Below, one piece after another: positions 13,083 to 31,699 of a stretch of DNA of 64,000 bases (position 1 is the first letter of the stretch; every line of letters starts with the position of its first letter). The DNA lies in IMG/VR virus record IMGVR_UViG_3300009826_000001, positions 1 through 64,000 of that record; one strand, given 5' to 3'. The translations under genes and the position numbers were made by a program. The notes beneath the pieces were generated by a model. That model was not told where the DNA came from and made no database searches. It saw only the letters and a list, made by a program, of their open reading frames with translations. The stretch is from a virus. Lineage: Duplodnaviria; Heunggongvirae; Uroviricota; Caudoviricetes.

Positions 13083-13304
13083 ATGACGATCGGCATCGAC
13101 AAGCTGGACGACCTACAGGGGCTCATGCAGGGATTACTGGGCGTGGCGGCCGCGATTCGCGACAAGCTCACGGCTAAACCGCTGGAGGCCCAGAAGCTGC
13201 ACAGCATCGCGGTGACGCTGCGCAGCATCGACGATTCACTGTGCAGGATCGCCGAGTCGACGGCCATCATGTCGCGGCCCCCGAGCCCGCTCAACAACCG
13301 ATGA
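13083..13304 (+). CDS. hypothetical protein (73 aa)
   Basis: ATG 13083 within ORF 13041..13304. Confidence 0.45.
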   Translation: MTIGIDKLDDLQGLMQGLLGVAAAIRDKLTAKPLEAQKLHSIAVTLRSIDDSLCRIAESTAIMSRPPSPLNNR

Positions 13305-14038
13305 CCGCCGAGCAGCTCGACTTCATCGAGCGCCAGGCCAACGCCTGGCGTGAGATCCGTCAGTGGGCCAAGGATGCGGAGGACCACCCACTGATCCCGA
13401 CGCAGCCCGGCGGCAGCTGGGACGGCCCCGGCTCCACGCTGGACGGTGCGCAGGCGGTGGTGCTGTGGCTACCGAAGCTGATCACCAAGCTGGGCATCAA
13501 GACCATCCTCGACGCGCCGTGCGGAGACTGGACCTGGATGAAGCACGTCGATCTGTTCGGCGTGGACTACACCGGCTGGGACGTGGACGAGGTTCGCATC
13601 GAGAAGTGCGACAACACCGTCAACACGCCGCGCGGTAGCCGCGCCAGGACCACTGCCAAAAAGGTGCGGTTCGAGGAGGTGAACCTGCTCAAGGTCCGCG
13701 ACGTGCCCAAGGTCGACCTCATCATCTGCCGCGATTTTCTGAGCTGTCTGCTCGACGAGCACATCCAGCATGTGCTGACTCGGTTCAAGCTCTCGGGCAG
13801 CACCTGGCTGCTGATCACCACCTACCCCGGCGCCAGCAACGAATACACCTACGACCCGAGCCAGCAGACCTGGGACGGCTATCTCGAGCGGCCGGTCAAT
13901 CTCGAGGGACCGCCCTGGAACTTAGAGCCGGTCGCCCGGGTACCGGAAGTCTCGGGCCCCGGCGGAGTGCTCACGATGCCGCGCGATATGGCGCTGTTCC
14001 CGCTCAATCACGGTGCAGTGTGGACGGATGCTTCCTGA
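13301..14038 (+). CDS. class-I SAM-dependent methyltransferase-like protein (paralogue of 31046..31699)
   Basis: ILDAPCGDWTW (motif I-like), GWDVDE (post-I), DLIICRDFL (motif II-like); ATGA overlap with upstream gene. Confidence 0.55.
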   Translation: MTAEQLDFIERQANAWREIRQWAKDAEDHPLIPTQPGGSWDGPGSTLDGAQAVVLWLPKLITKLGIKTILDAPCGDWTWMKHVDLFGVDYTGWDVDEVRIEKCDNTVNTPRGSRARTTAKKVRFEEVNLLKVRDVPKVDLIICRDFLSCLLDEHIQHVLTRFKLSGSTWLLITTYPGASNEYTYDPSQQTWDGYLERPVNLEGPPWNLEPVARVPEVSGPGGVLTMPRDMALFPLNHGAVWTDAS

Positions 14039-14219
14039 CCAACTGAACAGGATGTTGCGGCTGGCCAATGGTGCGCTGCGCAAGATCGCCGAACGCGAGC
14101 GTATTCCCGAAGGAGCCGACGTTCACCACGACGAAGCCACCCGGCAATACTCCTGGTGGCTCGGCTACCGGCAGGCCGTCGAGGAAATGATCGAGCTGGC
14201 GCGCCAAAGCGGAAGTTAA
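14028..14219 (+). CDS. hypothetical protein (63 aa)
   Basis: ATG 14028 in ORF 14013..14219. Confidence 0.4.
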   Translation: MLPDQLNRMLRLANGALRKIAERERIPEGADVHHDEATRQYSWWLGYRQAVEEMIELARQSGS

Positions 14220-14296
14220 AGTTTTGGGCCCAAAACTTTATAGGTTGACCGCGATAGTAAAGGTTTCTTTATAGGCGCCCGAATCCGGGCGGCGCC
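14217..14296. promoter_or_regulatory. palindrome + AT-rich repeat + GC hairpin, probable terminator/promoter-operator
   Basis: perfect palindrome AGTTTTGGGCCCAAAACT; two CTTTATAGG direct repeats in the only AT-rich stretch nearby; CGCCCGAATCCGGGCG hairpin. Confidence 0.4.
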
Positions 14297-14338
14297 GTGG
14301 CGCTGCTGGATAGCAGCAGGCCGCTGGTTGATTATTGG

Positions 14339-14797
14339 ATGATGACGACGAGCAAAACCGACTGGGACGAGTGGAGCGACGAGTACGGCCAGTGCTACGT
14401 CAACCCGCCCTACCTGATCCGTCAGTACCGCAGTGCCAACGGCGAGACAGTGTGGCAGCTCACCGGCGCCGGCGAGCCGGTCGAGAGCGACGACCTGTCA
14501 TTTCTGCAGCGCGAGGCCGCCGAGCACCGGCGCTCGGCCAGCTCACTACCACTGACCCGGGAGCTGGGCGATCTGAGTGCGGGCGCTACTGGTGGCGGCA
14601 TCGTGCGCGAGGACCGGATGATCGACACCGCGCGATACAAGACCGAGCTCACCGAGCTGCGGCACTGCGCGCGAGCGCTGGCCAGGATGGTGAGCGGGGT
14701 CAACAACATCTACCGCGAGGCCGCGGTGGTCAATAGCCGGGACGTATTGGAGTCGGTACGCGCCGATGTCCAGTCGATATTGGACCGATTGCCCTGA
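14339..14797 (+). CDS. hypothetical protein
   Basis: ORF 14297..14797, ATG at 14339 (MMTTSKTDWDEW). Confidence 0.5.
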   Translation: MMTTSKTDWDEWSDEYGQCYVNPPYLIRQYRSANGETVWQLTGAGEPVESDDLSFLQREAAEHRRSASSLPLTRELGDLSAGATGGGIVREDRMIDTARYKTELTELRHCARALARMVSGVNNIYREAAVVNSRDVLESVRADVQSILDRLP

Positions 14798-14817
14798 GGA
14801 ACATCACACTAAGAAGC

Positions 14818-15078
14818 GTGGATAACGTGCGGATCATCCGTGCCAACGGCGAAGTCGAAGACCTGCCGGCGGGACTGCACACCGAGGAGCCCCGCTCACC
14901 GATGCGCCGGTTCATCCTGGAACTGCCCGAAGGCATCTTCGAGGGCATCGCTATGTCGGGCGGCTGGGTGGTGCTGCACCAGCTGTGCGACGCCATCTTT
15001 GTGATCTACCCCAGCGTCGGTGACCTGCTGGAGCGCAAGAACCTCAACGCCAACATCATCCGGTGGCTGGATGCCTAG
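14818..15078 (+). CDS. hypothetical protein (GTG start)
   Basis: ORF track. Confidence 0.45.
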   Translation: MDNVRIIRANGEVEDLPAGLHTEEPRSPMRRFILELPEGIFEGIAMSGGWVVLHQLCDAIFVIYPSVGDLLERKNLNANIIRWLDA

Positions 15079-15505
15079 TCTGACCAAGGTTGAGCGCGAG
15101 CGCCGGGATGCGTTGATCATCAACCTGTTCCTGTCCGGCCAGCGCGAGAGTGTGATCGCCCGCCGGGTCAACCTGTCGGCCAAGCGTGTCCACCAGATCG
15201 TCGATGAGCAGCTGGCCATCGCCAGCGAACGCTTCGGCCTGATCAGCCAGAAGGCCCTGGTCGTCAGCAATGAGCGCCTCGAGATGCTGCTTAAGGGCAT
15301 CTGGAACAAGGCGGTGTCCGGTGAGGACACCAAGGCCACCGAGGTTGCGCGCCGGCTTTTGGAGCAACAGGCCAAGCTCTACAACATCGCCGCCGACGTG
15401 CCCACCCGGTTCGCCCCGATGGGCGACAACGAGCTGACCGACGAAGTCGACGACCTGCGCAAGTACCGGGCACGCCATCACCCGCAGGAGGCATCCACGG
15501 CATGA
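15071..15505 (+). CDS. putative small terminase / HTH DNA-binding protein
   Basis: ATG overlaps upstream stop; [24 protein letters not shown]; lies upstream of large terminase. Confidence 0.45.
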
Positions 15506-15909
15506 CCAATATTGAGTGGCCGGCAGGATCGCTGAATGAACGCCGCGCCATCTTCGTCTATGAGGTCGCACGCCTGCAGGCCGCGGCGGTTGGCGCGCCT
15601 ATCGTCCCCGAGTCGTGGTCGCACCGTGACGAGGCGTTCCGGTCACAATTCCTCGGTGTCATCGAAATGATGGCCGGCGCGGACCGCAAAAGTGATCCCG
15701 AAGAACTGCACAACGACTGGTGGCGCAAGTACGAGGAGATGGGCTGGGTTTATGGCCCTGAGCGCGATCCGGTCAAAAAGACACATCCTGACATGGTGGA
15801 TTTCAAGCTGCTCGGCTGGCGTGAGCGTAACAAGGACGCTGTGTTCGTCGCGCTCTGCGAGCTAGCACGTCAATGGATCATTGACGACGATCCCGAGGAG
15901 GCGGCATGA
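15502..15909 (+). CDS. hypothetical protein (135 aa)
   Basis: ORF track. Confidence 0.5.
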
Positions 15910-16370
15910 CCGGAAAGCTCTCCGACGAGGACGGTTATGCGTCGGCACCCGGTGTCGAGGACATGGTCGCGGCGTGCGAGAAAAACACCGCGTGGCGCCG
16001 GGTGCTGGCCACCAGCGAGCGCACCCAGATCGTGCTCATGTCCATCCCGGTGAACACCGACATCGGCGCCGAGGTCCACAAGGTGGATCAGACCATCGTC
16101 TTCGTGGCCGGCGAGGGCTACGCCGACCTGGACGGCAGCAGAACAAAGATGGGCCCGGGCTGGATCGCGTTCGTGCCCAAGGGAACCCGGCACAACTTCA
16201 TCAACACCGGCATGGGGGACCTCAAGCTCTATACCGTCTACGCGCCGCCCAACCACAAGCCCGGCGACGTGGAGAAGACCAAGGCCGATGCCGCCAAGGT
16301 GCCCGACGTGCCACTGCACTCCGGGCGCACCTTCGCCTTACCGCGCCGCGATGCCTGGTATTACCAATGA
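15906..16370 (+). CDS. cupin-domain protein
   Basis: [20 protein letters not shown] matches cupin motif 2 G(x)5PxG(x)2H(x)3N; β-rich. Confidence 0.55.
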
Positions 16371-17995: not shown

Positions 17996-18455
17996 CGTTC
18001 CAGTGGGCGCACGGCTGGGGTCCGAGCGGCTCTACGATGTGGACGCCGATGGCTGGCCGCGGCCATTCGAGTCGGCGCTGCGCTATGCAACGGCGGTGGC
18101 CGACACGTTGCCCGATGCCCCCGAGGAACCGCTGACCGAACCCGACGAGCCGCCGATTAGGCCCGAGGAGATCCCCGACTACATCCCCGACGCGCCGGAA
18201 CGGCACCCGCCGATCGGGCTTCGCAACCACAGGCCCGCTCGCAAGGCTGTCAAACCCAAGCGCCGCAAACGTGCCCGGAAACAGGCGAACTGGCGTGAAA
18301 TCCTGTCTACCCTCCTGGAGCTGTGCGGAATCGCCGCGCTGACGACTGGATCGTGGATGATCCGGGCGTGGCTCGGGGTATTGGTGCTGGGCACATGCCT
18401 AGTCTTAATGGGCATAGCTCTGTCTTTTGAGCCAGGGGGCCGAACTAGGGAGTGA
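17985..18455 (+). CDS. hypothetical protein with C-terminal TM segment
   Basis: ORF track; Pro/Glu-rich middle, hydrophobic C-terminus. Confidence 0.45.
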   Translation: MTDDVPVGARLGSERLYDVDADGWPRPFESALRYATAVADTLPDAPEEPLTEPDEPPIRPEEIPDYIPDAPERHPPIGLRNHRPARKAVKPKRRKRARKQANWREILSTLLELCGIAALTTGSWMIRAWLGVLVLGTCLVLMGIALSFEPGGRTRE

Positions 18456-19816
18456 GCGTTCTCGCCCGACTGATGCCGCGCGGCGGCGCGATGGAGCGCC
18501 GCACGCTGGAAAGCTCTGCGTTCGTCCCACCCCCTCAAGTCGGTGTGATCGACGATTACGTCGGCGTACACCGGGCGATGAGCTCAATGACGGTGATGGC
18601 CTGCGTGCGGCTGCTCTCCGATACCATCGCCAGCCTGCCGTGGAAGGCATACCGCAAGGGCAAGGACGGCATCCCCGTCGAGGTCGACCCGCAGCCGGCG
18701 ATCCTGCGCAGCCCGTTCCCCGGCTTCGACTTGTTTCAGTACAAGTGGATGATGGTGTCCTCGATGGCGTTGCGCGGCAACTTCTACGCCTACGTCACCA
18801 GCCGCGACGCCATGTTCCGGCCCACCGCGATCCTGCCTCTGCACCCCGACCTGATTTTTTTGGAGCGCCGACCCGACATCCTGATGTGGATGGACCCCAT
18901 CTACCGCATCATGGGCCAGCAGGTGCCCAGCCAGGACATGGTCCACATCCGGCGCTTCACGATGGCCGGCGAGCCGTGGGGCCTCTCCCCGGTCAAGCAG
19001 GCCGCGGCGGCGATCGGGATGAGCCTGGCCGCCGAGGAATACGGCTACCGCTATTTCCGCGAGTCGGCCAACCCTTCGGGCATGTTGATGACCGAGCAGA
19101 ACCTGTCCGACGACGTGGTCAAGCGCCAGCAACAGCAGTGGATCGCCAGCCACGGTGGCCGCCGGCTGCCGGCGGTGCTCACCGGCGGCTTCAGCTTCAA
19201 GACGCTCACGATTGCGCCCAACGAGGCGCAGTTCCTAGAAACCCGTCAGTTCCAGCGGTCTGAGATCGCCATGATGTACGGGATACCGCCGCACATGATC
19301 GGCGACACCGAACGGTCCACCAGCTGGGGCACCGGCATCGAGCAGCAGTCCATTGGCGCGGTCACATTCACCTTCCGGTCCTGGGCCGCGCCGATTGAAT
19401 CCGTGATGACCAACCTGCTGCCAACCGGCCAATATGTCCGGTTCGACTTCAACGAATTGACCCGAGGTGACATCAAAGCGCGCTACGACGCCTACGACCA
19501 GGCGATCCACTCCGGCTGGCTCAACGTCAACGAGGTTCGCCGCGACGAGCAACGGCCACCGATCGGACCTGATGGCGAAATCTACCTGCAGCCGGTCAAC
19601 TACGCGCCGCTGGGCTTCACCCCGGTGGCAGCACCACCCAAGGCGCCGCCGGCCGTGCCCCCGAACTACCCCGAAGCTCCCGGGGTGAAAGAGCCACCCG
19701 GAAAGGCTGGGCCGCCGCAGCCGGGGAAGCCAAACGGTAAAGGCACCCGAGATGACATCGGTGAGTATTTCGGGCGCCTATATCCGTGGCTTGACCCAGA
19801 GAATCAGCGAGGATAA
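18452..19816 (+). CDS. portal protein
   Basis: 454 aa, position between terminase and protease; HK97-like portal composition. Confidence 0.75.
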   Translation: MSVLARLMPRGGAMERRTLESSAFVPPPQVGVIDDYVGVHRAMSSMTVMACVRLLSDTIASLPWKAYRKGKDGIPVEVDPQPAILRSPFPGFDLFQYKWMMVSSMALRGNFYAYVTSRDAMFRPTAILPLHPDLIFLERRPDILMWMDPIYRIMGQQVPSQDMVHIRRFTMAGEPWGLSPVKQAAAAIGMSLAAEEYGYRYFRESANPSGMLMTEQNLSDDVVKRQQQQWIASHGGRRLPAVLTGGFSFKTLTIAPNEAQFLETRQFQRSEIAMMYGIPPHMIGDTERSTSWGTGIEQQSIGAVTFTFRSWAAPIESVMTNLLPTGQYVRFDFNELTRGDIKARYDAYDQAIHSGWLNVNEVRRDEQRPPIGPDGEIYLQPVNYAPLGFTPVAAPPKAPPAVPPNYPEAPGVKEPPGKAGPPQPGKPNGKGTRDDIGEYFGRLYPWLDPENQRG

Positions 19817-19820
19817 AGGG

Positions 19821-22001
19821 ATGGACCACAGTAATCGCGCCCGCCTGATCGACGTCCCGGAGCGCCGCACCCTCGCGATGCCACCGGAGTTGCGTAAAGA
19901 CCCGGGCACCGGGCAGCTGGTGATGAGCGGCTACGCCGCGACGTGGGACCCCTACGACTGCTACGGCGGACCCGACCACGGCGGGTGGGTGGAGAAGCTG
20001 GAACGGGCCGCGTTCGAGCGCACCCTTGACGAGAAGCCCGACATGATGCTGCTGGTCAACCACGAGGGACTGCCGCTGGCGCGCACCAAGAGCGGCACGC
20101 TGCAACTTGACACCGACCGGCGAGGTCTGACGATGCGCGCGATGCTCGATCCCGACGACCCCGACGTGCAGCGGCTGATCCCGAAGATGAAGCGCAAAGA
20201 CCTCAACGAGATGAGTTTTTCGTTCCGGGTCAAAGATCAGGCGTGGAACAGCGATTACAGCCACCGCACGATAACTGAACTATCACTTCAGAAAGGGGAC
20301 GTGTCGATTGTCAATTACGGCATGAACCCCAACACCCATGCGATCATGGGCGTGGAATCGCTGGCACGCGCGGACGGGAGCGCACTGATGGAGGTCCGGC
20401 GCCTGGACCGCACCGTGCTGGCCGGGGCGATGGCCAACCTGCGCCGCGCCTGGCGTGCCAACGAGGAACCCGAGCACTGCCCCGGTGGCGCGGATTGCAT
20501 GGGCGCGATGTGCCCCGACCACGGCGAGAAGGCCGGCAAGCGCCAGTCCACGCTGGTCAACTTCGATGGCGGTCACTTGCTGCACGGCGGGGAGTGCCTG
20601 ACGTGTGCGGGGGCCCGCGCCAAGACGCCGTCCCAGTACGGCAACGTCGACTACGCCGACCCCGGCTACCTGGACAGCTCGGGCAAGCAGGCCAAGGGCG
20701 GCAACGGCGTCAAGCGGTACCCGATAGATAAGACCCACGTCAAAGCGGCGTGGAGCTATATCAACATGCCCAAGAACCAGAAGGGCTACACGCCAAGCCA
20801 GCTGGCGTCGATCAAGAACAAGATCAAGGCTGCCATGAAGAAGTTCGGGCACGATACCGACGACAGCGACTCCAAGAGCCTGCAGACCGTGGTCGATATC
20901 GACCGGGTCGAGGGCGTGCGAACCGCAACCGGCGGCCTGGCGCTGGTGGCCGTGATGACCGATGGGTCGCGCACCCCGCTGCCGTCCTTGCAGGACACTT
21001 CCAGCCCGATTTCGGGCGTTCCCAGGATGCGCAAGACCGACAACTCGGTCACCGGGTCGGGCAAGGTCAGCGGAACGCGCGTGCCGGTCAAGGACGAGGG
21101 CGAGGACGACCCCGACGAGTTCGGCGAGCCGATCAAGGCCAGTATGCAGAACTGGAAGGACGACGAGGGCCCGAACGACCCGCACAACGAGCCCTACAAG
21201 GCACCGGGTCGCACCGGGCCGGGACAGGCCACCGACAATTCGGTGCTGGACGCCAAGCCCAAGACCAAGGACACCGACTTCTACGACATCTGGCCGGAGT
21301 ATTCGCCCAACGATCCGCACGACGACCCGTATGACGCGCCCAGCGACGAGGGTGACAAAGACCCCGACGAGCTGCACGGCGACCCGGCCCCCGAGCCGAG
21401 CCCCGCAGTCGGCACGGCGTTTCGGCAGGGCACCGGCCCGCGGCTGGGTGGTCACGACATTCCCACCACCGACCATCCGTACAGCGACGATATCGGCACC
21501 GAGCCCTCCGGTGATGCCTATGGCCCGCAGAAGGAGATGGACGACGAGGCCGTCGAGGACGAGCACCACGCCAAGACCACCAGCACCTCCAAGGAGTGGA
21601 TGGAGGGCAGCGCGGCCGAGGACCCGTGGGGCAAGCGCGAGCTGCCCGAGGACAATCCCGACTTCGACGACCCGGTGAAGATCCACGCCACTGCGCGCCG
21701 CGAAGGCAAGAAGCCGCCGACCGATCCCGATGACCCGGAGTACGAGAATGAGCGCCAAGACGGCGAGTCCGAGGCCGCCCCGGACTTCGGCGGCGGCGAG
21801 GATGGCGAGTCCGATTCCGACATGTCCGACGACATGGACGACGCCACGACAGGAGATGGCGGCGATGGCGGCGGCCTGGGCGAGATGTATTCCTACCAGC
21901 CCAGCGTGACCGAGCACCTGCAGCGACTACGACGCAATGCCGAGCTGCCCGACCTGCCGACGCTTGCTGAGGCGGCGGCGTACCTGCACCAGCTGGGCTA
22001 G
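19821..22001 (+). CDS. capsid maturation protease fused to long acidic scaffold-like C-terminal extension
   Basis: N-terminal about 200 aa HK97 prohead-protease-like; C-terminal about 480 aa D/E/P-rich; RBS AAAGGG before ATG 19821. Confidence 0.7.
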   Translation: MDHSNRARLIDVPERRTLAMPPELRKDPGTGQLVMSGYAATWDPYDCYGGPDHGGWVEKLERAAFERTLDEKPDMMLLVNHEGLPLARTKSGTLQLDTDRRGLTMRAMLDPDDPDVQRLIPKMKRKDLNEMSFSFRVKDQAWNSDYSHRTITELSLQKGDVSIVNYGMNPNTHAIMGVESLARADGSALMEVRRLDRTVLAGAMANLRRAWRANEEPEHCPGGADCMGAMCPDHGEKAGKRQSTLVNFDGGHLLHGGECLTCAGARAKTPSQYGNVDYADPGYLDSSGKQAKGGNGVKRYPIDKTHVKAAWSYINMPKNQKGYTPSQLASIKNKIKAAMKKFGHDTDDSDSKSLQTVVDIDRVEGVRTATGGLALVAVMTDGSRTPLPSLQDTSSPISGVPRMRKTDNSVTGSGKVSGTRVPVKDEGEDDPDEFGEPIKASMQNWKDDEGPNDPHNEPYKAPGRTGPGQATDNSVLDAKPKTKDTDFYDIWPEYSPNDPHDDPYDAPSDEGDKDPDELHGDPAPEPSPAVGTAFRQGTGPRLGGHDIPTTDHPYSDDIGTEPSGDAYGPQKEMDDEAVEDEHHAKTTSTSKEWMEGSAAEDPWGKRELPEDNPDFDDPVKIHATARREGKKPPTDPDDPEYENERQDGESEAAPDFGGGEDGESDSDMSDDMDDATTGDGGDGGGLGEMYSYQPSVTEHLQRLRRNAELPDLPTLAEAAAYLHQLG

Positions 22002-22003: not shown

Positions 22004-23356
22004 ATGATCGTCGGTGTCGGTACGGGCCGCTCAGGCACCTTGACGTTGGCACTATTGCTGGATGGTTGTCAGAACATCCGGTGCGTGCATGAGTCCGAGC
22101 CGCTGTTGCCGTGGGAGATCGACGGCCGCGCCTACAAGGACAAGCTCGCCGAGATCAAGGCCGAGCCGGGCCGCGCCGAGGTCGGCTTCTACTGGCTGAA
22201 CTACCTGCGGCCACTGCTCAAGGACGTTCCCGACGTGCGGATCGTGGCCACCCGGCGCGACCCGGTGAAGACCGCCGAGTCCTTCGCGGCCTACATGGGC
22301 CCCAAGCGCAACCACTGGCTGGATCACAAGGGTGTGGGCTGGGAGCTCGACCCGCTGTTCGACGACTGTTACCCCACCTACGAGATACGCGACCGCCACC
22401 AGGCGATCGTGCGCTACTGCACCGAGTACAACGCCGAGGTGGACCGGCTGCGGCGCAAGTACCCCTCCCAGGTGCTGGTGGTCAAGACCGAAGACCTGGG
22501 CACCATCGCCACCCAGCAGAAGATTTTCGAGCACTGCGGCATCCCCAAGTCCGATCGCTGCTATGTCGCCGGCATCCACCACAACAAGCGCAAGGAAACC
22601 CGCGACCAGCAAGACGAGCTGGACCTCACGGCGCTGTCGACCACCGGGGACTCTCAGCGCATCCCGCTCTACGTCGGCACCTACCGCAAGCGCAAGCACA
22701 TCGAGACCTGCCTGCGCAGCATCGACGCCAACGTCAAGGGCTACGACGAGATCATCTTCCTCGACGACTCCGGCGACCGGCTGCACACCAAGTGGCTCCT
22801 GCAGTACGGGCAGGTGGTGGCACTGCCCAAAGTCGGGCACAGCGTCGCGATGCGGGCACTGTGCGCGCACGCCAACGGGCGCCAGCTGGCCTGGATCGAG
22901 GAGGACTTCGAGATCACTGGCTCGATGGACCTCACTGAGATGAGCGAGCACCTCTACCACCGGCCCTACCTGGCGCAGATCGCGCTGCTGCGCCAGCCGT
23001 TGTGGGCCGACGAGAAGCGCCTCGGCGGCGTGCTGGAGGCGGTGGCCGCCAACGGCTGGGCGGTGCGCTATGTGCTGGGGCTGTGGGAATCGCGTGGGTG
23101 GTTCACCTGCAACCCCTCCCTGTGGCGCGGGCATGTCACCGAGCTGGGCTGGCCCAATCCCAAGCGGGTGGCCGGGCGCGACTACAGCAGCGAATGGATC
23201 AAGAGCAAAGAACTGCGCGAACTGTTCATGGGCGAGAAGCTGCCCTCGGACTGGATGGCGCCGATCAGCGAAAAGGAGCCGCGTGGCTACTCGTTCGGAT
23301 TCCTCGACGGCATCCGGTGTCACCACTGGGGACACCGGGAGGGCCACGGCTATTAA
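22004..23356 (+). CDS. sulfotransferase-like domain fused to GT2-like glycosyltransferase domain
   Basis: N-terminal IVGVGTGRSGTLTL (5'-PSB-like P-loop) and VATRRDPVKTAESFAAY (RDP 3'-PB-like) resemble carbohydrate sulfotransferases; C-terminal IPLYVGTYRKRKHIETCLRSI...EIIFLDDSGD GT-A/GT2-like. Confidence 0.55.
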   Translation: MIVGVGTGRSGTLTLALLLDGCQNIRCVHESEPLLPWEIDGRAYKDKLAEIKAEPGRAEVGFYWLNYLRPLLKDVPDVRIVATRRDPVKTAESFAAYMGPKRNHWLDHKGVGWELDPLFDDCYPTYEIRDRHQAIVRYCTEYNAEVDRLRRKYPSQVLVVKTEDLGTIATQQKIFEHCGIPKSDRCYVAGIHHNKRKETRDQQDELDLTALSTTGDSQRIPLYVGTYRKRKHIETCLRSIDANVKGYDEIIFLDDSGDRLHTKWLLQYGQVVALPKVGHSVAMRALCAHANGRQLAWIEEDFEITGSMDLTEMSEHLYHRPYLAQIALLRQPLWADEKRLGGVLEAVAANGWAVRYVLGLWESRGWFTCNPSLWRGHVTELGWPNPKRVAGRDYSSEWIKSKELRELFMGEKLPSDWMAPISEKEPRGYSFGFLDGIRCHHWGHREGHGY

Positions 23357-23512
23357 CCGGCGTCGGCTCAAGGACCGTCATCGCCAGCTTTGCGACGGGT
23401 CGATGGCGGTCCCCACGGAGTACGAGGACGACGAGTACGCGATCTGCCTGGCCTGCGGCCGGCGGCTGTGGGTCGGGCGCAACGGCAAGATTCCCAACCA
23501 TTGGCCGTCGAA

Positions 23513-24196
23513 GTGAAGCCCTCGGTGCAGGTGGTCATCCCTTGGCGGCCCAGTCCCGAGCGGATGGCCGCCTTCGAGCGGACCATGCAGTTCTGGAACT
23601 ACGTCGGCTGGCCGGTGGTGTTCGGCGACTCGCCGGCCGACAAGCCGTTCTCGCTGGCCCAGGCCCGTAACCGCGGGGTGGCCAAGACCTCGGCGCAGAT
23701 CGTGGTGGTGTCCGACGCCGACACCATCCCCACGCTGCAGAACGTGGTGCGCGCGGTCGATGATCCCGGTCCCGGTGTGACCTGGGTGTTTAGCCACTAC
23801 CGGCGTATCCACCAGGACTGGGTGGACAAGCCCGACCTGATGGGCGCCCCGCTGATCGAGAGCTGGGAGAACGGACTGGGCGGCTGCTATGTCTGCAAGC
23901 GGTCCACCTACTTCTACATCGGCGGCACCGATCCCCGGTTCATCGAGTGGGGCTTCGAGGACACCTCGATGTATGCGGTGGCCTCCACGCTGGCCCAGGC
24001 CCGCCGGATGCCGGGCGTGATCTTTAGCTTTGAGCACGACGGCGGTTGGACCAAGCGCGGCAACCAGGCCAACCGGCCGCTGTTCACGCCGTATTACAGC
24101 GCGCGGCGCAAGCCGTGGATGATGCGTGCGCTGCTGCGCCAGCGCGCACAGGCCGACCCCACCGACCCGGCCAACATCTACTGGGGACGCCGGTGA
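23513..24196 (+). CDS. GT-A glycosyltransferase (β4GalT/GT7-like)
   Basis: GTG start overlapping upstream stop (GTGA); VVVSDADTIP DxD region, EWGFEDTSMY resembles the WGxEDDD galactosyltransferase motif. Confidence 0.6.
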   Translation: MKPSVQVVIPWRPSPERMAAFERTMQFWNYVGWPVVFGDSPADKPFSLAQARNRGVAKTSAQIVVVSDADTIPTLQNVVRAVDDPGPGVTWVFSHYRRIHQDWVDKPDLMGAPLIESWENGLGGCYVCKRSTYFYIGGTDPRFIEWGFEDTSMYAVASTLAQARRMPGVIFSFEHDGGWTKRGNQANRPLFTPYYSARRKPWMMRALLRQRAQADPTDPANIYWGRR

Positions 24197-24511: not shown

Positions 24512-25999
24512 ATGCCCGAGTTGCTAGAGGAGCGAGATCCGCTCAATCCGGCCGGGGGCATGGAGGCGTACCTCAAACGTATGCTCCAGCGCCGGGCTCA
24601 ATTAGTCCGACAGCGCGAGGCGTTGCAGGAGAAGGCCGAGGCCGTCCTGCTCGAAGCGCGCAGTGCGGGCCGCGACCAGCTTGGTCCTGAGGAAGATTCC
24701 GAGCTGCGCAAGTACACCAAGCAGATGAAGGCCCTGGGCGCCGACATTGCCGGCCTCGACGAGCGTATCGAGGAAACCCGGCAAGAGGTCGAGCGCACCG
24801 GCTCCATCAGCAAGAACCTCGCCAAGATTCGGCAGGCCGAGACTGCGGTCACCCGGGTCCGTGAGATGGCGGTCTACCAGCAGGGTGACAAGCGCCGGTC
24901 CTATATGCAGGACTTGGTGAAGATGAGCCTCAACCTGGACGCCACCGGCGAGTGCCGGGAACGCCTGATGCGGCACGCACAGGACGTTGCCACCAGCGAT
25001 GACTACCGGGAGTTCCGCGACATCGACCGGGTTGACGGTACCGGCGGTTACGCCGTGCCGCCCGTCTGGCTGATGAATCAGTACATCGAGTTGGCACGTC
25101 CGGGCCGGGCGTTCGCCAACCTGGTGCAGCGCCAGCCACTACCCGGCGGTACGGACTCGATCAACATCCCCAAGCTGTTGACCGGGACCGCGGTCGGTAT
25201 GCAGACCGACAACCAGGACGTCACCGAGGTGGACCTGACGGACACCTTCGTGAACGCTCCGGTACGCACCATCGCCGGCCAGCAAGGGCTCGCCATCCAG
25301 TTGATCGACCAGTCGCCCATCGCGTTCGACGACGTGGTGTTCCGCGACCTGGTGGCCGCGCACGCCGCCGCTGTGGACCAACAGGTTCTACAGGGCGACG
25401 GCACAGGCGGGCTTGGCCCGGGCAACCAGGCCGGCGGCCAGGTGCTCGGCGTGGACTACACCCCGGGGATTCTCACAGTGGCAGCCGCCACGGTGGACAT
25501 CCAGGGCGTGTACTCCGCGATCGCCAACGCCATCCAGCAAGTGCACACCACGCGTTTCCTGCCGCCCGAGGTGATCGTCATGCACCCGCGGCGATGGGGC
25601 TGGTTCCTGAGCCTGCTGGACACCACGCAGCGCCCGCTGTTCCTGCCCAGCGCCAACAGCCCGATGAACATCGGCGGTCTGTTGACTGCGGTGGCAAGCC
25701 AGCAGGTGGTCGGCCAGATGCACGGCCTGCCGGTGGTCACCGACCCGAACATCTCCACTGGGACGCCGCCTACCGGCGCACCGTTGGGGACGCCGGGCGA
25801 TGGCGAGGACACCATCTACGTCGCACGCGTGAGCGACTTGGTTCTGTGGGAGGGTGGCATCCGCGCTCGCGTGCTGCCGGAAACCCGCGCACAGACCCTG
25901 ACAGTCCTCCTGCAAATCTATTCGTACATCGCGTTCAGCGCAGGGCGGTATCCACAGTCCGTCGCGGTCATAACAGGTTTGACCCCACCGACCTTCTGA
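24512..25999 (+). CDS. major capsid protein (HK97 fold) with N-terminal coiled-coil delta-like region
   Basis: AAGGGA RBS; 495 aa; position after protease/scaffold; followed by strong terminator. Confidence 0.8.
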   Translation: MPELLEERDPLNPAGGMEAYLKRMLQRRAQLVRQREALQEKAEAVLLEARSAGRDQLGPEEDSELRKYTKQMKALGADIAGLDERIEETRQEVERTGSISKNLAKIRQAETAVTRVREMAVYQQGDKRRSYMQDLVKMSLNLDATGECRERLMRHAQDVATSDDYREFRDIDRVDGTGGYAVPPVWLMNQYIELARPGRAFANLVQRQPLPGGTDSINIPKLLTGTAVGMQTDNQDVTEVDLTDTFVNAPVRTIAGQQGLAIQLIDQSPIAFDDVVFRDLVAAHAAAVDQQVLQGDGTGGLGPGNQAGGQVLGVDYTPGILTVAAATVDIQGVYSAIANAIQQVHTTRFLPPEVIVMHPRRWGWFLSLLDTTQRPLFLPSANSPMNIGGLLTAVASQQVVGQMHGLPVVTDPNISTGTPPTGAPLGTPGDGEDTIYVARVSDLVLWEGGIRARVLPETRAQTLTVLLQIYSYIAFSAGRYPQSVAVITGLTPPTF

Positions 26000-26033: not shown

Positions 26034-26077
26034 AAACTCCCCGGTAGTCAATCAGACTCCGGGGAGTTTGCTTGTTA
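26034..26077 (+). terminator. rho-independent terminator after capsid gene
   Basis: CAAACTCCCCGG / CCGGGGAGTTTG 12-bp stem followed by CTTGTT. Confidence 0.6.
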
Positions 26078-26148
26078 GCAAACCTCCCAGCAAACCGATT
26101 GCGTTGTGGGACACAAAATTGTCGCAGCCCGCTGTTAAGTTGCGCGGC

Positions 26149-26841
26149 ATGGATGATTCCCTGTTCTCGTACAGCGACCTTGATCCAGACCAACGAATCC
26201 CAGTGTGGGGGCCAGAGGGTCTGTTGCCACTGGGATTAGATGATCCTGACGTCGCGGCCGAGGGCATCCACTTCTGTCATAAGTGCAACAGAGTGAAGTT
26301 GCACTCGGAGTTCTACATTCGGCCAGGAAGTGGCCGAGTTCAATTCCCCTGCTCGGACTGTATAAGGGAGTACCAGAAGCGATACGCCGGAAACGATGAG
26401 TTCAATGCTCACCGACGAAAGCAATATGCGAATGACCCCGAGAAGCAGGCGAAGAATCGCGAGCGCCACCAACGCCTAATGCTCGATCCCGCATACCGGG
26501 CAGCGCAAGTGGAGAGGGTCAAGAAATGGGTCGATTCCAATCCCCTTCGCCGCTGGGCGACTCAGCTCAGCAGGTACAGCATCACGCCTGATGATTACGA
26601 AAAAATCTTCGCGGCGCAGGGAAGCGTCTGTGCAGGATGCTTAGCTCCCCCGAACGGCAGGAAGCTGGCTGTGGATCATAACCACCGGTGCTGCGACGGC
26701 GACTTCTCATGCGGGGCGTGCATCCGCGGCCTGCTATGCGATACCTGCAATCGCCGGATCTTGGGTAATGCGGAGAAGAATCGCACCGTCGAAGAAGCAA
26801 CTGCGGTGCTGCGTAGGCTGGCTGACTATCTGGAGGCTTGA
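26149..26841 (+). CDS. Endonuclease VII-type HNH homing endonuclease
   Basis: CAGCLAPPNGRKLAVDHNHRCCDGDFSCGACIRGLLCDTCNRRILG canonical EndoVII/HNH motif; ATG 26149 in ORF 26068..26841. Confidence 0.8.
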   Translation: MDDSLFSYSDLDPDQRIPVWGPEGLLPLGLDDPDVAAEGIHFCHKCNRVKLHSEFYIRPGSGRVQFPCSDCIREYQKRYAGNDEFNAHRRKQYANDPEKQAKNRERHQRLMLDPAYRAAQVERVKKWVDSNPLRRWATQLSRYSITPDDYEKIFAAQGSVCAGCLAPPNGRKLAVDHNHRCCDGDFSCGACIRGLLCDTCNRRILGNAEKNRTVEEATAVLRRLADYLEA

Positions 26842-26911: not shown

Positions 26912-26936
26912 GTGTGGCTACCGATACCCTTAACTC

Positions 26937-27323: not shown

Positions 27324-27347
27324 ACATCGACACGGACAGACCAGCCG

Positions 27348-29050: not shown

Positions 29051-29146
29051 TTCCGACTCGGTGGGCTGCGCATACCGACCATAAGGCAGACGGCAAATGA
29101 TAGCTTCGGCTGATGTCGCTGAACCTTTAATTCTGGGAATAACGCA

Positions 29147-29290
29147 ATGACTCCGACCCTATTCGCACGCCTCGCGACCGCCATCCGGGCGATCCTGTTC
29201 AACATCACGCACCCGCACCGGATGCCTCAGTGCCGACACGGCTTTGCCCCTGACCAGGGGTTGGGCCTGTGGTGCCCGGCATGTCGATAA
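29147..29290 (+). CDS. small Cys-rich zinc-ribbon-like protein (47 aa, not in track)
   Basis: MTPTLFARLATAIRAILFNITHPHRMPQCRHGFAPDQGLGLWCPACR; stop overlaps next ATG. Confidence 0.3.
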   Translation: MTPTLFARLATAIRAILFNITHPHRMPQCRHGFAPDQGLGLWCPACR

Positions 29291-29688
29291 TCCCTAGCCC
29301 GTGGGCCATCGCCTACGCGCACCGGCACTTCACCGGCACCAAGGACTCGCACGGCAACAAGAAGCGCATCACCGACCCGCCCGAGATACGGATGGTGATG
29401 AGCATCGCCCAGCCGGGCCGCTTCGGCGCCAGCCGCGAGGTCATCTCCGCCGAGAACCTGCTGCGCGACGAGACCGCGCTGATGATGGCGGTCGCCGACC
29501 CGACGATCTACTACGTCGATGACTCCATCTGGATCTTCCCCGAGTTCGACAAGTACGGCTGCCTGATCCCGGGCTCAGGCATCGCCTACTGGATCATGGG
29601 CACACCCGCCGATGACCGCCAGGGGCCGTGGCCGGATCTACTGGCCATGTTCGGCGGCGTCGTTAGATGTAAACGAGTCAGCGGCTAA
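29281..29688 (+). CDS. hypothetical protein (135 aa)
   Basis: ATG 29281 in ORF 29269..29688. Confidence 0.5.
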   Translation: MSIIPSPWAIAYAHRHFTGTKDSHGNKKRITDPPEIRMVMSIAQPGRFGASREVISAENLLRDETALMMAVADPTIYYVDDSIWIFPEFDKYGCLIPGSGIAYWIMGTPADDRQGPWPDLLAMFGGVVRCKRVSG

Positions 29689-29694
29689 TTAGAC

Positions 29695-29895
29695 TTGCGG
29701 AGTATGATTCGCAACTCTCTGAAAGCGATCGCCGCCGGCATCGGCGCGATCCTGAGCGTAGCCGTCGCGCTGGACGGCATCGGTTTCATCCCCGCCTCGG
29801 CCAGGGCAGTCACCAGCATCGTCATCGCCGTACTCACGCCGGTCGCCACCTGGCTGGCGCCCTACACCGCGACCGCGACCGAGACCGTTGACTGA
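29695..29895 (+). CDS. small two-TM membrane protein (66 aa)
   Basis: AIAAGIGAILSVAVALDGIGFIP... and IVIAVLTPVATWLAPY hydrophobic helices. Confidence 0.45.
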   Translation: MRSMIRNSLKAIAAGIGAILSVAVALDGIGFIPASARAVTSIVIAVLTPVATWLAPYTATATETVD

Positions 29896-30469
29896 GTTTG
29901 CCGGCGAGCTCGGCGAAGGCGCCTTTGGAGCGGCCGAAGCCGCCGGCGGTGACGAAGCCGAGGCCGGCGCTGGGATCAGCCCGTGGCCAATGGACCTGGG
30001 CCACGGCAACTACATGGTGCTCGACCCGGCTGCAATCGAAGCGTTGTTCACCACCCCGCAAGCCAACGCGGCGGTACAGGCCCGCGCCCAGTCGGTGATC
30101 GACATCGCCAACGGTCTGGCCGTGCTACACGGCGTGGTCTATGAAGCCGTGGAGATCAACACCGGGCCGTGGGCGACGAACTTCTTTGGCGTTGAGACAA
30201 CCCGGCCGGTGATCGTGGTGCGGCCCAAGAACTTCTGGGCCTATCTTGAGGAACAACAGCACTCCACCCTGATGATCGCGGCTCACATGGCGGGCAACGA
30301 CCCGAAGGTCACCTACGAGAATCTGTCACAGGGCCTTCCGCTGGACGAGTCCTTCGGCGGATTCAACACGCCGCTGGGTGTGGTGATGGGCGAGATGGAG
30401 GCGTTCTCCGAGGAGCCGGGAACCGGCGACACCGCGGGCGGCGGATTTGAGGAGGGGGCCACGACATGA
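29888..30469 (+). CDS. hypothetical protein (start uncertain: TTG 29888 or ATG 29990)
   Basis: ORF track. Confidence 0.45.
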   Translation: MTEFAGELGEGAFGAAEAAGGDEAEAGAGISPWPMDLGHGNYMVLDPAAIEALFTTPQANAAVQARAQSVIDIANGLAVLHGVVYEAVEINTGPWATNFFGVETTRPVIVVRPKNFWAYLEEQQHSTLMIAAHMAGNDPKVTYENLSQGLPLDESFGGFNTPLGVVMGEMEAFSEEPGTGDTAGGGFEEGATT

Positions 30470-30978
30470 CGTCCTCCTACCCGATCACGGCGGCCATCCG
30501 GCCGTTTCCCACCATGCGGCCAATCCCGGTCGAGGACGTGGCGGTGGCCTACTTCACAGCGATGCTCGATCCGCTGGTGGTCTGCACCCGTAACCCCGAG
30601 TCGCTGCCAGGCGAAGACACGCCCGGGGAGTTCCTGAGAATTCAGGCCGGAGGTGGCCGCCAGCTGCCCAACTGGTACTGGTTCGACATGAGTGTGATCC
30701 TGCACAGCTATGCGCCCAACGACCTGGAGACTCACGCCGAGCGCAACCTCGGCGATGCCATAGCGTGGGGCGCCAACGCACAGGGCACGCTCGTCACCAT
30801 TCCTAACGGCGACCAATACTGGATCACCTACAGCTTCGCCTCGGGCACGCTCACTCGTCTGGGCGATCCGCTGGTGGACATGATCCGTTACCGCGGCATG
30901 GTGACCTGGCGCGTGCAGGGTCACCAGCTGGCGCCCAATCCGGTGGTTCCGTCACCGGATGGCCAGCCCGCGGTATGA
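30466..30978 (+). CDS. hypothetical protein (170 aa)
   Basis: ATGA overlap; followed by 25-aa TM peptide ORF 30975..31052 (MTIVIACVALGVFLALLLHFDRREW) coupled to next gene. Confidence 0.5.
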   Translation: MTSSYPITAAIRPFPTMRPIPVEDVAVAYFTAMLDPLVVCTRNPESLPGEDTPGEFLRIQAGGGRQLPNWYWFDMSVILHSYAPNDLETHAERNLGDAIAWGANAQGTLVTIPNGDQYWITYSFASGTLTRLGDPLVDMIRYRGMVTWRVQGHQLAPNPVVPSPDGQPAV

Positions 30979-31045
30979 CCATCGTGATCGCGTGCGTGGC
31001 ACTGGGGGTCTTCCTGGCGCTGCTACTGCACTTTGACCGTAGGGA

Positions 31046-31699
31046 ATGGTGATGGGCTTCATCGAGCAGCAGGCGAGCGCCTGGACGCAGATTGTGGACA
31101 TGATGATCGAGCAGCCCACCAATGTGCTCATCAACGGGTCGATGAACGGCCCCGCAGCCAACATGGCCGGGAGCGCCAACGTGCGTCACGAGCTGCCGTT
31201 TTTGCTGCGCGAGTACAAGATCACCTCGATGCTCGACGTGCCATGCGGGGACCTGTCCTGGATTCGGCACACCGACCTGCGCAGCCTCTATGTGTATATC
31301 GGCGTCGATGTCGACCGCCGGCTCATTGACGAGGCGCGCCGAGCGTGCCCAATGGGCGGGTTCATCTGCGCCAATATCCTCACCCGCGAGAAGCTGCCTG
31401 TGGTCGATCTGATCCTGTGCCGGGACTTCCTCATGTGCCTGCCTGACGAGCACCTGCAGTCGGTGATCGAGAAGTTCAAATGCTCGGCGGCAGCGTACCT
31501 GTTGGCGAGTAACTACCCGGGCTCGTCGAACACCTTCGACTACCATCCCGAGCAGTTCCCTATCCTCGGTTACCTGGAGAGGCCGTACGATCTCACTGCG
31601 CCACCGTTCAACCTGGAGCAGATCGACGGCATCATCGAGAACCAAGCATCGGCAGGATTGGTGAGCAAACCGCATGAGCTGGCACTATTCAAAATCTGA
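31046..31699 (+). CDS. class-I SAM-dependent methyltransferase-like protein (paralogue of 13301..14038)
   Basis: MLDVPCGDLSWI, GVDVD, DLILCRDFLMCLPDEHLQSV, YPGSSN...GYLERP shared with 13301..14038. Confidence 0.55.
   Translation: MVMGFIEQQASAWTQIVDMMIEQPTNVLINGSMNGPAANMAGSANVRHELPFLLREYKITSMLDVPCGDLSWIRHTDLRSLYVYIGVDVDRRLIDEARRACPMGGFICANILTREKLPVVDLILCRDFLMCLPDEHLQSVIEKFKCSAAAYLLASNYPGSSNTFDYHPEQFPILGYLERPYDLTAPPFNLEQIDGIIENQASAGLVSKPHELALFKI

What the first reader, a model, noticed from the sequence alone, without database searches (positions are those of the whole stretch)
13301..31699. Virion carbohydrate-modification gene set: GT-A galactosyltransferase-like plus two paralogous methyltransferase-like genes
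23513..24196 is a GT-A enzyme with a DxD region and a β4GalT-like EWGFEDTSMY motif. 13301..14038 and 31046..31699 are clear paralogues sharing DxPCGDxxW, DLIxCRDFLxCLxDEHxQxV, YPGxSN and GYLERP, a class-I SAM-methyltransferase-like layout. Together with the sulfotransferase-GT2 fusion they imply a multi-step virion O-glycan pathway (glycosylation, O-methylation, sulfation).
Basis: partly seen in the sequence, partly recalled or inferred. Interest (0 to 1): 0.55.

Follow-up and report, generated by a model that had tools for sequence, protein, structure and literature searches.

The report
Phage virion glycosylation and methylation genes
A metagenomic Mycobacterium-type phage carries glycosyltransferase, sugar-tailoring methyltransferase and sulfotransferase genes among its head and tail genes. 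This arrangement is already known from mycobacteriophages that coat their particles with sugars, so the finding is real but largely ordinary.

Summary
13301-14038 and 31046-31699 are true paralogues (39% identity, E 5e-56) with a confidently predicted class I SAM-methyltransferase fold. 23513-24196 has a GT-A glycosyltransferase fold with invariant DxD and WGxED motifs.

The window is a roughly 127-kb metagenomic siphophage whose nearest isolates are Cluster J mycobacteriophages. The sulfotransferase-GT2 fusion and the GT-A gene lie between the prohead protease and major capsid genes. One methyltransferase lies upstream of the terminase; the other lies between the tail terminator and the major tail protein.

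The GT-A protein is homologous to Corndog gp37 and Che8 gp109, which belong to the operons of phages reported to glycosylate their virions. The methyltransferase family is repeatedly fused to, or embedded among, glycosyltransferases in other phages.

The best explanation is therefore late-expressed O-glycosylation of capsid and tail-tube proteins, with methyl and possibly sulfate tailoring (confidence about 0.6). The target and the chemistry are inferred, not shown.

It is a new member of a known kind. GT and methyltransferase insertions in structural operons were described for Cluster J in 2013 and Cluster O. The less ordinary parts are the rare sulfotransferase-GT2 fusion and the two retained methyltransferase lineages.

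The parts
13301..14038 (+). MT1: class I SAM-dependent methyltransferase (245 aa), phrog_3382 family, MT1-type lineage. Its start overlaps the stop of the upstream ORF (ATGA). The motif I variant D71-APCGDWT-W79 lies at 13511-13537.
   Evidence: phrog_3382, E 8e-42; invariant G42 D71 C74 G75 W79 Y90 G92 D139 R144.
22004..23356 (+). Sulfotransferase-like N-domain (about residues 1-200) fused to a GT2-type GT-A domain (about residues 220-450; phrog_3047). It sits directly after the prohead protease gene.
23404..23516 (+). 37-aa CxxC mini-ORF whose stop overlaps the GT-A start (GTGA). Possibly translationally coupled; function unknown.
   Evidence: called as a 37-aa gene in L006.
23513..24196 (+). 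GT-A fold glycosyltransferase (227 aa), phrog_1721 'galactosyl transferase', homologous to Corndog gp37 and Che8 gp109. DxD lies at 23714-23722 and EWGFEDTSMY at 23945-23974.
   Evidence: (E 1.9e-32).
24512..25999 (+). Major capsid protein (495 aa). It is the putative acceptor, with a T/P-rich loop (residues about 406-430, STGTPPTGAPLGTPG) and the C-terminus ...TGLTPPTF.
   Evidence: Its role as acceptor is inferred only.
31046..31699 (+). MT2: paralogous class I SAM-methyltransferase (217 aa), MT2-type lineage, between the tail terminator (30466-30978) and an HNH endonuclease (31712-32188). Motif I lies at 31235-31261.
   Evidence: (E 1.5e-35).
33499..34158 (+). Major tail (tube) protein (219 aa). 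It is a putative acceptor. Its C-terminal 12-residue Ser/Thr/Gly/Ala tail ATAAAGSGTSGT (34120-34155) is absent from most homologues.

Best explanation
These genes form a phage-encoded virion glycosylation and glycan-tailoring set of the type known from mycobacteriophages. The proposed sequence of events is as follows.

1. Late in infection the genes are co-transcribed with the head and tail genes.
2. The GT2 domain of the 22004-23356 protein and the GT-A enzyme (23513-24196) use host nucleotide-sugars to build short O-linked glycans on exposed Ser/Thr of the major capsid protein and/or the tail-tube protein. The tube protein's C-terminal tail ATAAAGSGTSGT is the most likely site.
3. The two paralogous SAM-dependent methyltransferases then methylate sugar hydroxyls, probably at two different positions or on two different substrates, because both lineages are retained in related phages.
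4. The N-terminal sulfotransferase-like domain may add sulfate from host PAPS.

The result would be a chemically capped glycan coat on the particle.

Shown here: the enzyme folds and motifs, the homology to the Che8 and Corndog operon genes, and the recurrent genetic linkage of this methyltransferase family to glycosyltransferases.

Inferred: the acceptor proteins, the linkage type, the donor sugars, the methylation and sulfation chemistry, and the biological benefit.
For: Gene order:
- It runs TerL, membrane protein, portal, protease, ST-GT2, GT-A, MCP ... tail terminator, MT2, HNH ... major tail protein, chaperones, tape measure.
- Corndog, which secondary sources report as glycosylated on capsid and tail tube (PMC11600133; PMC12363180), has methyltransferase gp35 plus GT gp36-38 in the equivalent place between portal and MCP.

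GT-A:
- It is homologous to Corndog gp37 (E 4e-13) and Che8 gp109 (E 1.6e-10).
- The AF2 model (pLDDT 92) has a GT-A fold. Top PDB matches are K4CP, beta4GalT7, beta4GalT1 and ppGalNAc-transferases.

MT1:
- The AF2 model (pLDDT 90) has a class I methyltransferase fold.

Linkage of the methyltransferase family to glycosyltransferases:
- In 6 of 8 long viral proteins the methyltransferase domain is fused to GT2 or GT34 domains, and in P0116 it is fused to a GT7 beta4GalT domain.
- Cluster J phage Ariel has the order MCP, GT, GT, kinase, MT homologue (39%)..., GT.
- prophiGD91-2 has GT x3, an MT homologue, another MT and a GT upstream of the terminase.
- Cyanophage ACG-2014f has the MT homologue among nucleotide-sugar epimerases, an aminotransferase, GTs and a 'Galactose-3-O-sulfotransferase'.
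- In the close relative L010, the slot between protease and MCP holds a single Methyltransf_23 + GT-A fusion.
- In an unrelated temperate phage, ST-GT2 (45%), GT-A (41%) and a non-homologous methyltransferase are adjacent, just upstream of the structural genes.

Tail-tube protein:
- Only 6 of 59 major-tail-protein homologues carry a C-terminal extension.
- 3 of those 6 have a phrog_3382-type methyltransferase within 10 kb, versus 0 of 53 without an extension. The hypergeometric p is about 6e-4, by my own arithmetic and not corrected for relatedness.

Cluster J:
- The Cluster J paper describes the same kind of insertion of GTs, methyltransferases and a kinase between the capsid and connector genes (PMC3706429).
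Against: - There is no direct evidence. The phage is known only from metagenomes.
- The window has no homologue of Che8 gp110 / Corndog gp38, which a secondary source calls essential.
- MT1 and MT2 are not homologous to the Corndog gp35 / Che8 gp108 methyltransferase.
- MT2 is flanked by homing-endonuclease genes. Its position next to the tail genes may therefore reflect mobile insertion rather than function.
- MT1 sits upstream of the terminase, the slot where Cluster E phage Typha keeps DNA-modification genes.
- Relative L016 has a TET-associated glycosyltransferase (TAGT) and a ParB_N protein near its methyltransferase.
- The MCP C-terminus is the same in Typha, where no GT was seen in the annotated left arm.
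- Structural neighbours of MT1 span O-, N-, C- and protein-N-terminal methyltransferases at similar scores, so the fold does not identify the substrate.
- Among 77 immediate neighbours of family members, the individual carbohydrate-enzyme Pfam families matched only 1-3 neighbours each (about a dozen in all, not de-duplicated) at E<=1e-4.
Confidence: 0.6

Rival explanations
1. The enzymes remodel host cell-envelope glycoconjugates (glycolipids, arabinogalactan/LAM-type polymers) during infection rather than virion proteins. Possible purposes are blocking superinfection, aiding release, or altering receptors.
For: Phage GT-A enzymes and sugar methyltransferases are generic tools, and nothing here identifies the acceptor. 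Homologues of the GT pair in Cluster C1 and Gordonia phages lie far from the structural genes, near lysis or replication genes. The cyanophage island looks like a surface-polysaccharide cluster.
Against: In this phage, in Corndog and in Cluster J, the genes are embedded in the late structural operon next to the capsid gene. No flippase, polymerase or lipid-carrier genes were seen in the window. Homology points to operons tied to virion glycosylation.
Confidence: 0.15
2. The glycosyltransferases glycosylate the virion, but MT1 and MT2 methylate virion proteins directly (N-terminal amine or side chains of capsid or tail proteins) rather than sugars.
Against: The family is repeatedly fused to GT2, GT7 and GT34 domains and sits in nucleotide-sugar islands. 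The structural-neighbour list is flat across substrate classes.
Confidence: 0.1
3. The set hypermodifies phage DNA (glycosylated and/or methylated bases) to evade restriction.
For: Relative L016 carries a TAGT (TET-associated GT, 50.8 bits) and a ParB_N protein near its methyltransferase. Cluster E relative Typha has 7-deazaguanine genes in the slot upstream of the terminase.
Against: Neither window GT matches TAGT. No TET/JBP, hydroxymethylase or deazapurine genes were found among the window ORFs that were scanned. By inspection, MT1 and MT2 lack the DPPY/NPPY or PCQ...ENV signatures of DNA methyltransferases. Their motif IV is DLIxCRD.
Confidence: 0.05

Closest known systems
Corndog (Cluster O) gp35-gp38 and Che8 (Cluster F) gp108-gp110 virion glycosylation operons (Freeman et al. 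2023, Cell Host Microbe; known here only through citing papers PMC11600133 and PMC12363180)
   Same: Both are phage-encoded GT-A enzymes plus a methyltransferase, placed in or next to the structural module. In Corndog they lie between portal and MCP, as they do here. The window GT-A is homologous to gp37 and gp109 (E 4e-13 and 1.6e-10).
   Different: There is no homologue of gp38 / gp110. The methyltransferases belong to a different family (phrog_3382, not the gp35/gp108 type). There are two methyltransferase paralogues, dispersed rather than in one operon. A sulfotransferase-like domain is fused to the second GT.
Cluster J mycobacteriophage insertion between the capsid and connector genes (Pope et al. 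2013, PMC3706429; e.g. Ariel gp14-21)
   Same: These are the nearest isolated relatives (portal about 50% identical). They carry several GTs plus SAM-methyltransferases interrupting the structural operon. Ariel gp17 belongs to the same methyltransferase family (38-39% identity). MT-GT fusions occur (LittleE gp17).
   Different: In Cluster J the genes are placed after the MCP rather than before it. Cluster J also has a Ser/Thr kinase and up to five GTs. No sulfotransferase is reported there (0 occurrences in the paper).
Synechococcus phage ACG-2014f glycan island (gp223-235)
   Same: It has the same methyltransferase family (36% identity), flanked by GTs and accompanied by an annotated sulfotransferase.
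   Different: It is a myovirus of cyanobacteria. The island also makes its own nucleotide-sugars (epimerases, an aminotransferase) and is not in the structural module. Its target is unknown.
Beta-1,4-galactosyltransferases (CAZy GT7: beta4GalT1, beta4GalT7) and E. coli K4 chondroitin polymerase
   Same: Shared features are the GT-A fold, a DxD motif, a WGxED-type loop and a downstream His.
   Different: Identity is only 13-18% and TM-scores about 0.5. There is no Glyco_transf_7N domain, and the 7C match (21.8 bits) is below the gathering score of 23. Donor specificity is unknown.

Membership tests
Class I (Rossmann-fold) SAM-dependent methyltransferases | Seven-stranded alpha/beta Rossmann-like fold | tested here: met
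Class I (Rossmann-fold) SAM-dependent methyltransferases | Motif I nucleotide-binding loop after beta1 (consensus hh[D/E]hGxGxG) and an acidic residue at the end of beta2 | tested here: met
   The loop is the variant L-D71-A-P-C74-G75-D. D71, C74 and G75 are invariant across 49 family members. D94 (GWDVD) is at least 90% conserved. Assigning these positions to the motifs rests on general knowledge of the fold.
Class I (Rossmann-fold) SAM-dependent methyltransferases | Score above the gathering threshold of a Pfam methyltransferase family | tested here: not met
   Best scores were CheR 22.2 (threshold 27) and Methyltransf_12 21.3 (30) for MT1, and Methyltransf_25 21.0 (27) for MT2. No NCBIfam hit and no PDB sequence hit.
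Class I (Rossmann-fold) SAM-dependent methyltransferases | Binds SAM and transfers methyl | not testable with these tools
   Requires biochemistry.
PHROG phrog_3382 (phage 'methyltransferase') | Significant full-length profile match | tested here: met
   E 8.2e-42 for MT1 and 1.5e-35 for MT2.
GT-A fold glycosyltransferases (GT2/GT7-like) | GT-A fold | tested here: met
   AF2 pLDDT 92. 215 PDB matches at E<=1e-3, topped by K4CP, beta4GalT7, beta4GalT1, ppGalNAc-transferases and heparosan synthase.
GT-A fold glycosyltransferases (GT2/GT7-like) | DxD metal/nucleotide-sugar binding motif | tested here: met
   D68-A-D70, with both Asp invariant in 12 homologues.
GT-A fold glycosyltransferases (GT2/GT7-like) | Score above a Pfam GT family gathering threshold | tested here: not met
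   Glyco_tranf_2_2 25.2 (threshold 27.3), Glyco_transf_7C 21.8 (23), Glycos_transf_2 19.7 (23.3). The PHROG phrog_1721 match is strong (1.9e-32).
CAZy GT7 beta-1,4-galactosyltransferases | Glyco_transf_7N + 7C domain pair | tested here: not met
   No 7N match, and 7C is below threshold. The PDB beta4GalT7 sequence match has E 0.72.
CAZy GT7 beta-1,4-galactosyltransferases | UDP-galactose donor specificity | not testable with these tools
   The 'galactosyl transferase' names in phage records are annotation transfers, not tested functions.
Mycobacteriophage virion glycosylation system (Che8/Corndog type) | Homologue of the operon GT Che8 gp109 / Corndog gp37 | tested here: met
   BLASTP E 1.6e-10 and 4.3e-13.
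Mycobacteriophage virion glycosylation system (Che8/Corndog type) | Homologue of Che8 gp110 / Corndog gp38 (called essential in PMC12363180) | tested here: not met
   No BLAST hit from any window query. Profile-profile comparison of the GT2 domain against the gp110 family gave probability 0.3%.
Mycobacteriophage virion glycosylation system (Che8/Corndog type) | Methyltransferase encoded with the GTs | tested here: met
   Two methyltransferases are present. They are analogous to Corndog gp35 / Che8 gp108 but not homologous to them.
Mycobacteriophage virion glycosylation system (Che8/Corndog type) | O-glycans on capsid and tail-tube subunits | not testable with these tools
   The only indication is indirect: a Ser/Thr-rich C-terminal tail on the tail-tube protein, rare in its family.
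PAPS-dependent sulfotransferases (N-domain of 22004-23356) | Pfam sulfotransferase family above threshold, with conserved 5'-phosphosulfate and 3'-phosphate binding motifs | tested here: met
   Sulfotransfer_3 scores 31.3 bits against a threshold of 27. GTGRSGT and R-R-D...S are conserved in at least 80% of 139 homologous domains. Assigning them to PAPS binding rests on general knowledge. The closest PDB sequence, 9kf1 'sulfotransferase family protein', has E 0.021.
PAPS-dependent sulfotransferases (N-domain of 22004-23356) | Sulfate transfer to a glycan | not testable with these tools
   Requires biochemistry.

The most novel reading that the evidence does not exclude
The particle carries O-glycans that are both methylated, at two distinct positions by two subfunctionalised methyltransferase paralogues, and sulfated by a sulfotransferase domain physically fused to a glycosyltransferase. 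To my knowledge this would be the first sulfated glycoprotein coat on a bacteriophage. The ST-GT2 + GT-A pair would be a portable cassette found in only a handful of phages.
Probability: 0.2. Interest if true: 0.6.

Novelty: new member of a known kind. Interest (0 to 1): 0.3.

Why it matters
Glycan coats on mycobacteriophage particles are reported to reduce antibody recognition, which matters for phage therapy of mycobacterial infections (PMC11600133, PMC12363180).

This locus extends that kind of system to an uncultured relative of the Cluster J phages. It gives the phrog_3382 methyltransferase family a well-supported role as a glycan-tailoring enzyme. It also identifies a rare sulfotransferase-glycosyltransferase fusion that could add a new chemical layer, sulfate, to phage surface glycans.

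If confirmed, these enzymes would be candidate tools for engineering phage surfaces. As it stands, the finding mostly confirms a known pattern.

Tried and rejected
- **PDB sequence search with MT1.** No hit at E<=1.
- **NCBIfam.** Nothing useful for any of the five proteins.
- **GT2 domain of the fusion versus the Che8 gp110 / Corndog gp38 family.** Profile-profile probability was 0.3%, so they are unrelated.
- **Cupin_2 protein (15906-16370) as a possible sugar isomerase/epimerase.** The best PDB relatives are BH2720 and polyketide cyclase-type cupins, so there is no sugar link and it was dropped.
- **Immediate-neighbour census of 77 ORFs next to family members.** Carbohydrate enzymes are the commonest recognisable class, but each carbohydrate family matched only 1-3 neighbours and most neighbours have no Pfam hit at all. 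This gives only modest support.
- **Single-sequence scan for tail-tube relatives.** It found nothing. An alignment-based scan was needed.
- **Freeman et al. 2023 primary paper.** It is not held, so its content is cited only through other papers or marked as recollection.
- **Nucleotide search of the region against isolated phages.** Only a 53-nt capsid match to Cluster E phages was found, so this is not a known isolate.
- **Minor-tail and left-arm proteins scanned for further carbohydrate enzymes.** None were found.

Full report
**Observation**

Gene callers on the source contigs agree with the boundaries: MT1 at 245 aa and the GT at 227 or 231 aa.

MT1 (13301-14038) and MT2 (31046-31699) align end to end at 39% identity, E 5e-56. 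The GT (23513-24196) carries D68-A-D70 and E145-WGFEDTSMY. D68, D70, W146, G147, E149, D150 and H175 are invariant among its 12 detectable homologues.

**Context**

The window is GC-rich (62-71%). It is part of a roughly 127-kb contig seen in several metagenomes (JGI 3300010049 and Logan/ENA assemblies).

It is not a sequenced isolate. Nucleotide search finds only a 53-nt capsid match to Cluster E mycobacteriophages. At the protein level, the nearest isolates are Cluster J mycobacteriophages, with the portal about 50% identical.

From about 13 kb onward, one rightward operon runs as follows:
- MT1
- small ORFs
- a RyR-domain protein
- a cupin
- large terminase
- a membrane protein
- portal (18452-19816)
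- prohead protease fused to a long DUF6582 region (19752-22001)
- the sulfotransferase-GT2 fusion (22004-23356)
- a 37-aa CxxC ORF
- the GT-A (23513-24196)
- major capsid protein (24512-25999)
- endonuclease VII
- adaptor, neck and terminator proteins
- MT2
- an HNH endonuclease
- major tail protein (33499-34158)
- chaperones
- a 3394-aa tape measure

**The methyltransferases**

Pfam methyltransferase matches are all below their gathering scores, and there is no PDB or NCBIfam sequence match. Both proteins nevertheless match PHROG phrog_3382 'methyltransferase' strongly (8e-42 and 1.5e-35).

The invariant residues D71, C74 and G75 (LDAPCGD) sit where motif I lies, and D94 and D139 sit where motifs II and IV lie. 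The fold does not reveal the substrate, because the neighbour lists are flat across substrate classes and include protein N-terminal methyltransferases.

The substrate inference comes from genetics:
- IMG/VR holds 255 viral contigs with a family member.
- Of eight cases in which the domain is part of a long protein, six are fused to GT2 or GT34 domains. One metagenomic protein fuses it to a GT7 beta4GalT domain.
- In Cluster J phage Ariel, the homologue gp17 lies among three GTs just after the capsid gene.
- In the Che8-like prophage prophiGD91-2, it lies among four GTs upstream of the terminase.
- In cyanophage ACG-2014f, it lies among nucleotide-sugar epimerases, an aminotransferase, GTs and an annotated galactose-3-O-sulfotransferase.
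- A census of 77 immediate neighbours shows carbohydrate enzymes as the commonest recognisable class, though each carbohydrate family matched only 1-3 neighbours and most neighbours are unannotatable.

MT1-type and MT2-type orthologues form separate lineages. Both are present, close together, in relatives L009 and L010. The duplication therefore predates this phage and both copies are retained.

**The GT-A**

The protein matches PHROG phrog_1721 'galactosyl transferase' at 1.9e-32. Its Pfam GT matches are just below threshold.

The AF2 model has pLDDT 92. Its best PDB matches are the chondroitin polymerase K4CP, beta4GalT7, beta4GalT1, polypeptide GalNAc-transferases and heparosan synthase. 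The beta4GalT resemblance is thus real, but it is not membership: there is no 7N domain, identity is 13-18%, and the donor sugar is unknown.

The protein is a detectable homologue of Corndog gp37 (E 4e-13) and Che8 gp109 (E 1.6e-10). Corndog has methyltransferase gp35 and GTs gp36-38 between its portal and capsid genes. Che8 has gp108-110, and gp108 shares its N-terminal part with Corndog gp35. Citing papers state that these enzymes glycosylate capsid and tail-tube proteins.

In the close relative L010, the same slot between protease and capsid holds one protein with a Methyltransf_23 domain fused to the GT-A orthologue.

**The sulfotransferase-GT2 fusion**

The N-domain passes the Sulfotransfer_3 threshold. 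Its GTGRSGT and RRD...S motifs are conserved in 139 homologous domains. The C-domain is a phage GT of the phrog_3047 type. It is 42% identical to Gordonia phage Rabbitrun gp121, and it pairs with a phrog_1721 GT in Cluster C1 and Gordonia phages.

The fusion itself is rare. One other cluster was found among 5.8 billion proteins, and one other representative among 1.84 billion. That other cluster comes from a temperate phage in which ST-GT2 (45%), the GT-A orthologue (41%) and an unrelated Methyltransf_24 enzyme are consecutive genes just upstream of the terminase-portal-protease-capsid block. This conserved neighbourhood, with a non-homologous methyltransferase in the third position, argues that glycosylation, methylation and the sulfotransferase-like activity belong to one pathway.

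**Likely acceptors**

The tail-tube protein ends in ATAAAGSGTSGT, beyond the point where most homologues stop. Of 59 homologues, six have any extension. Three of those six have a phrog_3382-type methyltransferase within 10 kb, against none of the 53 without an extension. By my arithmetic p is about 6e-4, uncorrected for shared ancestry, so this is only suggestive.

The capsid protein has a T/P-rich loop, but its C-terminus is the same as in Typha. My recollection is that Freeman et al. mapped glycans to the C-termini of capsid and tube subunits. I could not check this, because the paper is not held.

**Mechanism and rivals**

The best-supported reading (about 0.6) is late, cytoplasmic O-glycosylation of virion subunits by the two GT domains, followed by methyl capping by MT1 and MT2 and possibly sulfation.

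The rivals are:
- Host-envelope remodelling (about 0.15).
- Direct protein methylation by the methyltransferases (about 0.1).
- DNA hypermodification (about 0.05). This cannot be dismissed outright, because relative L016 has a TET-associated GT and a ParB_N protein beside its methyltransferase, and Cluster E phages keep DNA-modification genes upstream of the terminase.

MT2's position may simply reflect mobile insertion, because it is flanked by HNH genes.

**Comparison and novelty**

GT and methyltransferase insertions in the structural operon were described for Cluster J in 2013, including MT-GT fusions. They are also described for Cluster O, and virion glycosylation is reported for Che8, Corndog and Myrna. 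The finding is therefore a new member of a known kind.

The less ordinary elements are:
- The sulfotransferase-GT fusion. No report of phage virion glycan sulfation turned up, although a cyanophage island also carries an annotated sulfotransferase.
- The absence of a gp110/gp38-type GT.
- The retention of two methyltransferase lineages.

Interest is modest, at 0.3.

Noticed in passing
window 6059-7771 (-) and 7960-8074 (-): A Ro60/TROVE + vWA_Ro60 orthologue (570 aa) has a full-length but sub-threshold YrlA (Y RNA-like) match just upstream on the same strand (35.4 bits vs gathering score 69, E 9.9e-6). This looks like a phage-borne Ro60 / Y-RNA module.
   Followed up: partly
window 8312-8375 (-): A tRNA-like element sits just below the Rfam threshold (27.2 vs 29 bits), in the ORF-poor gap next to the YrlA-like match. 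ARAGORN finds no tRNA in the window.
   Followed up: partly
window 10529-10972 (-): A 147-aa protein has a precomputed Pfam hit to PF25186 (Tad4) on the source contig. By its Pfam name I take it to be a candidate anti-defence gene, but I did not check this.
   Followed up: no
window 35141-45325 (+): The tape measure ORF is 3394 aa, which would imply an exceptionally long tail.
   Followed up: no
window 19752-22001 (+): The prohead serine protease (Peptidase_S78) is fused to a long C-terminal region containing DUF6582, 749 aa in total. It may be a protease-scaffold fusion.
   Followed up: no
window 26068-26841 (+), 31712-32188 (+), 32689-33366 (-): An endonuclease VII-like gene and an HNH endonuclease gene interrupt the structural operon, the first right after the capsid gene and the second right after MT2. 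A third, minus-strand ORF (32689-33366) was not scanned; I read it as possibly HNH-like from its Cys/His-rich sequence only. These are probably free-standing homing endonucleases.
   Followed up: partly
window 23404-23516 (+): A 37-aa CxxC mini-ORF has a stop codon that overlaps the GTG start of the GT-A gene (GTGA).
   Followed up: no
L089/L090 6076-8760 and 9119-11638: In the temperate phage that carries the other ST-GT2 cassette, the portal gene contains an intein with a LAGLIDADG domain, and the 894-aa gene upstream of it (probably the terminase) also carries a LAGLIDADG_3 domain.
   Followed up: no
L016 12327-12890 (+) and 12859-13851 (+): A related phage has a ParB_N protein and a TET-associated glycosyltransferase (TAGT, 50.8 bits) in the insertion between protease and capsid that also holds its methyltransferase. 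This hints that some relatives may glycosylate DNA.
   Followed up: partly
L010 15289-16614 (+): The closest large relative encodes a single Methyltransf_23 + GT-A fusion in the slot between protease and capsid. Both methyltransferase paralogues lie close together (about 770 bp apart, one small ORF between them) upstream of its terminase.
   Followed up: yes
window 57029-60622 (+), 53844-57020 (+), 46429-48420 (+): Large minor tail proteins carry NHL repeats, a Gly_rich_2 domain and a Sipho_Gp37 domain respectively.
   Followed up: no
window 2183-2797 (-), 4309-5175 (-): The leftward arm encodes a histidine phosphatase (His_Phos_1) and a Band_7 protein.
   Followed up: no
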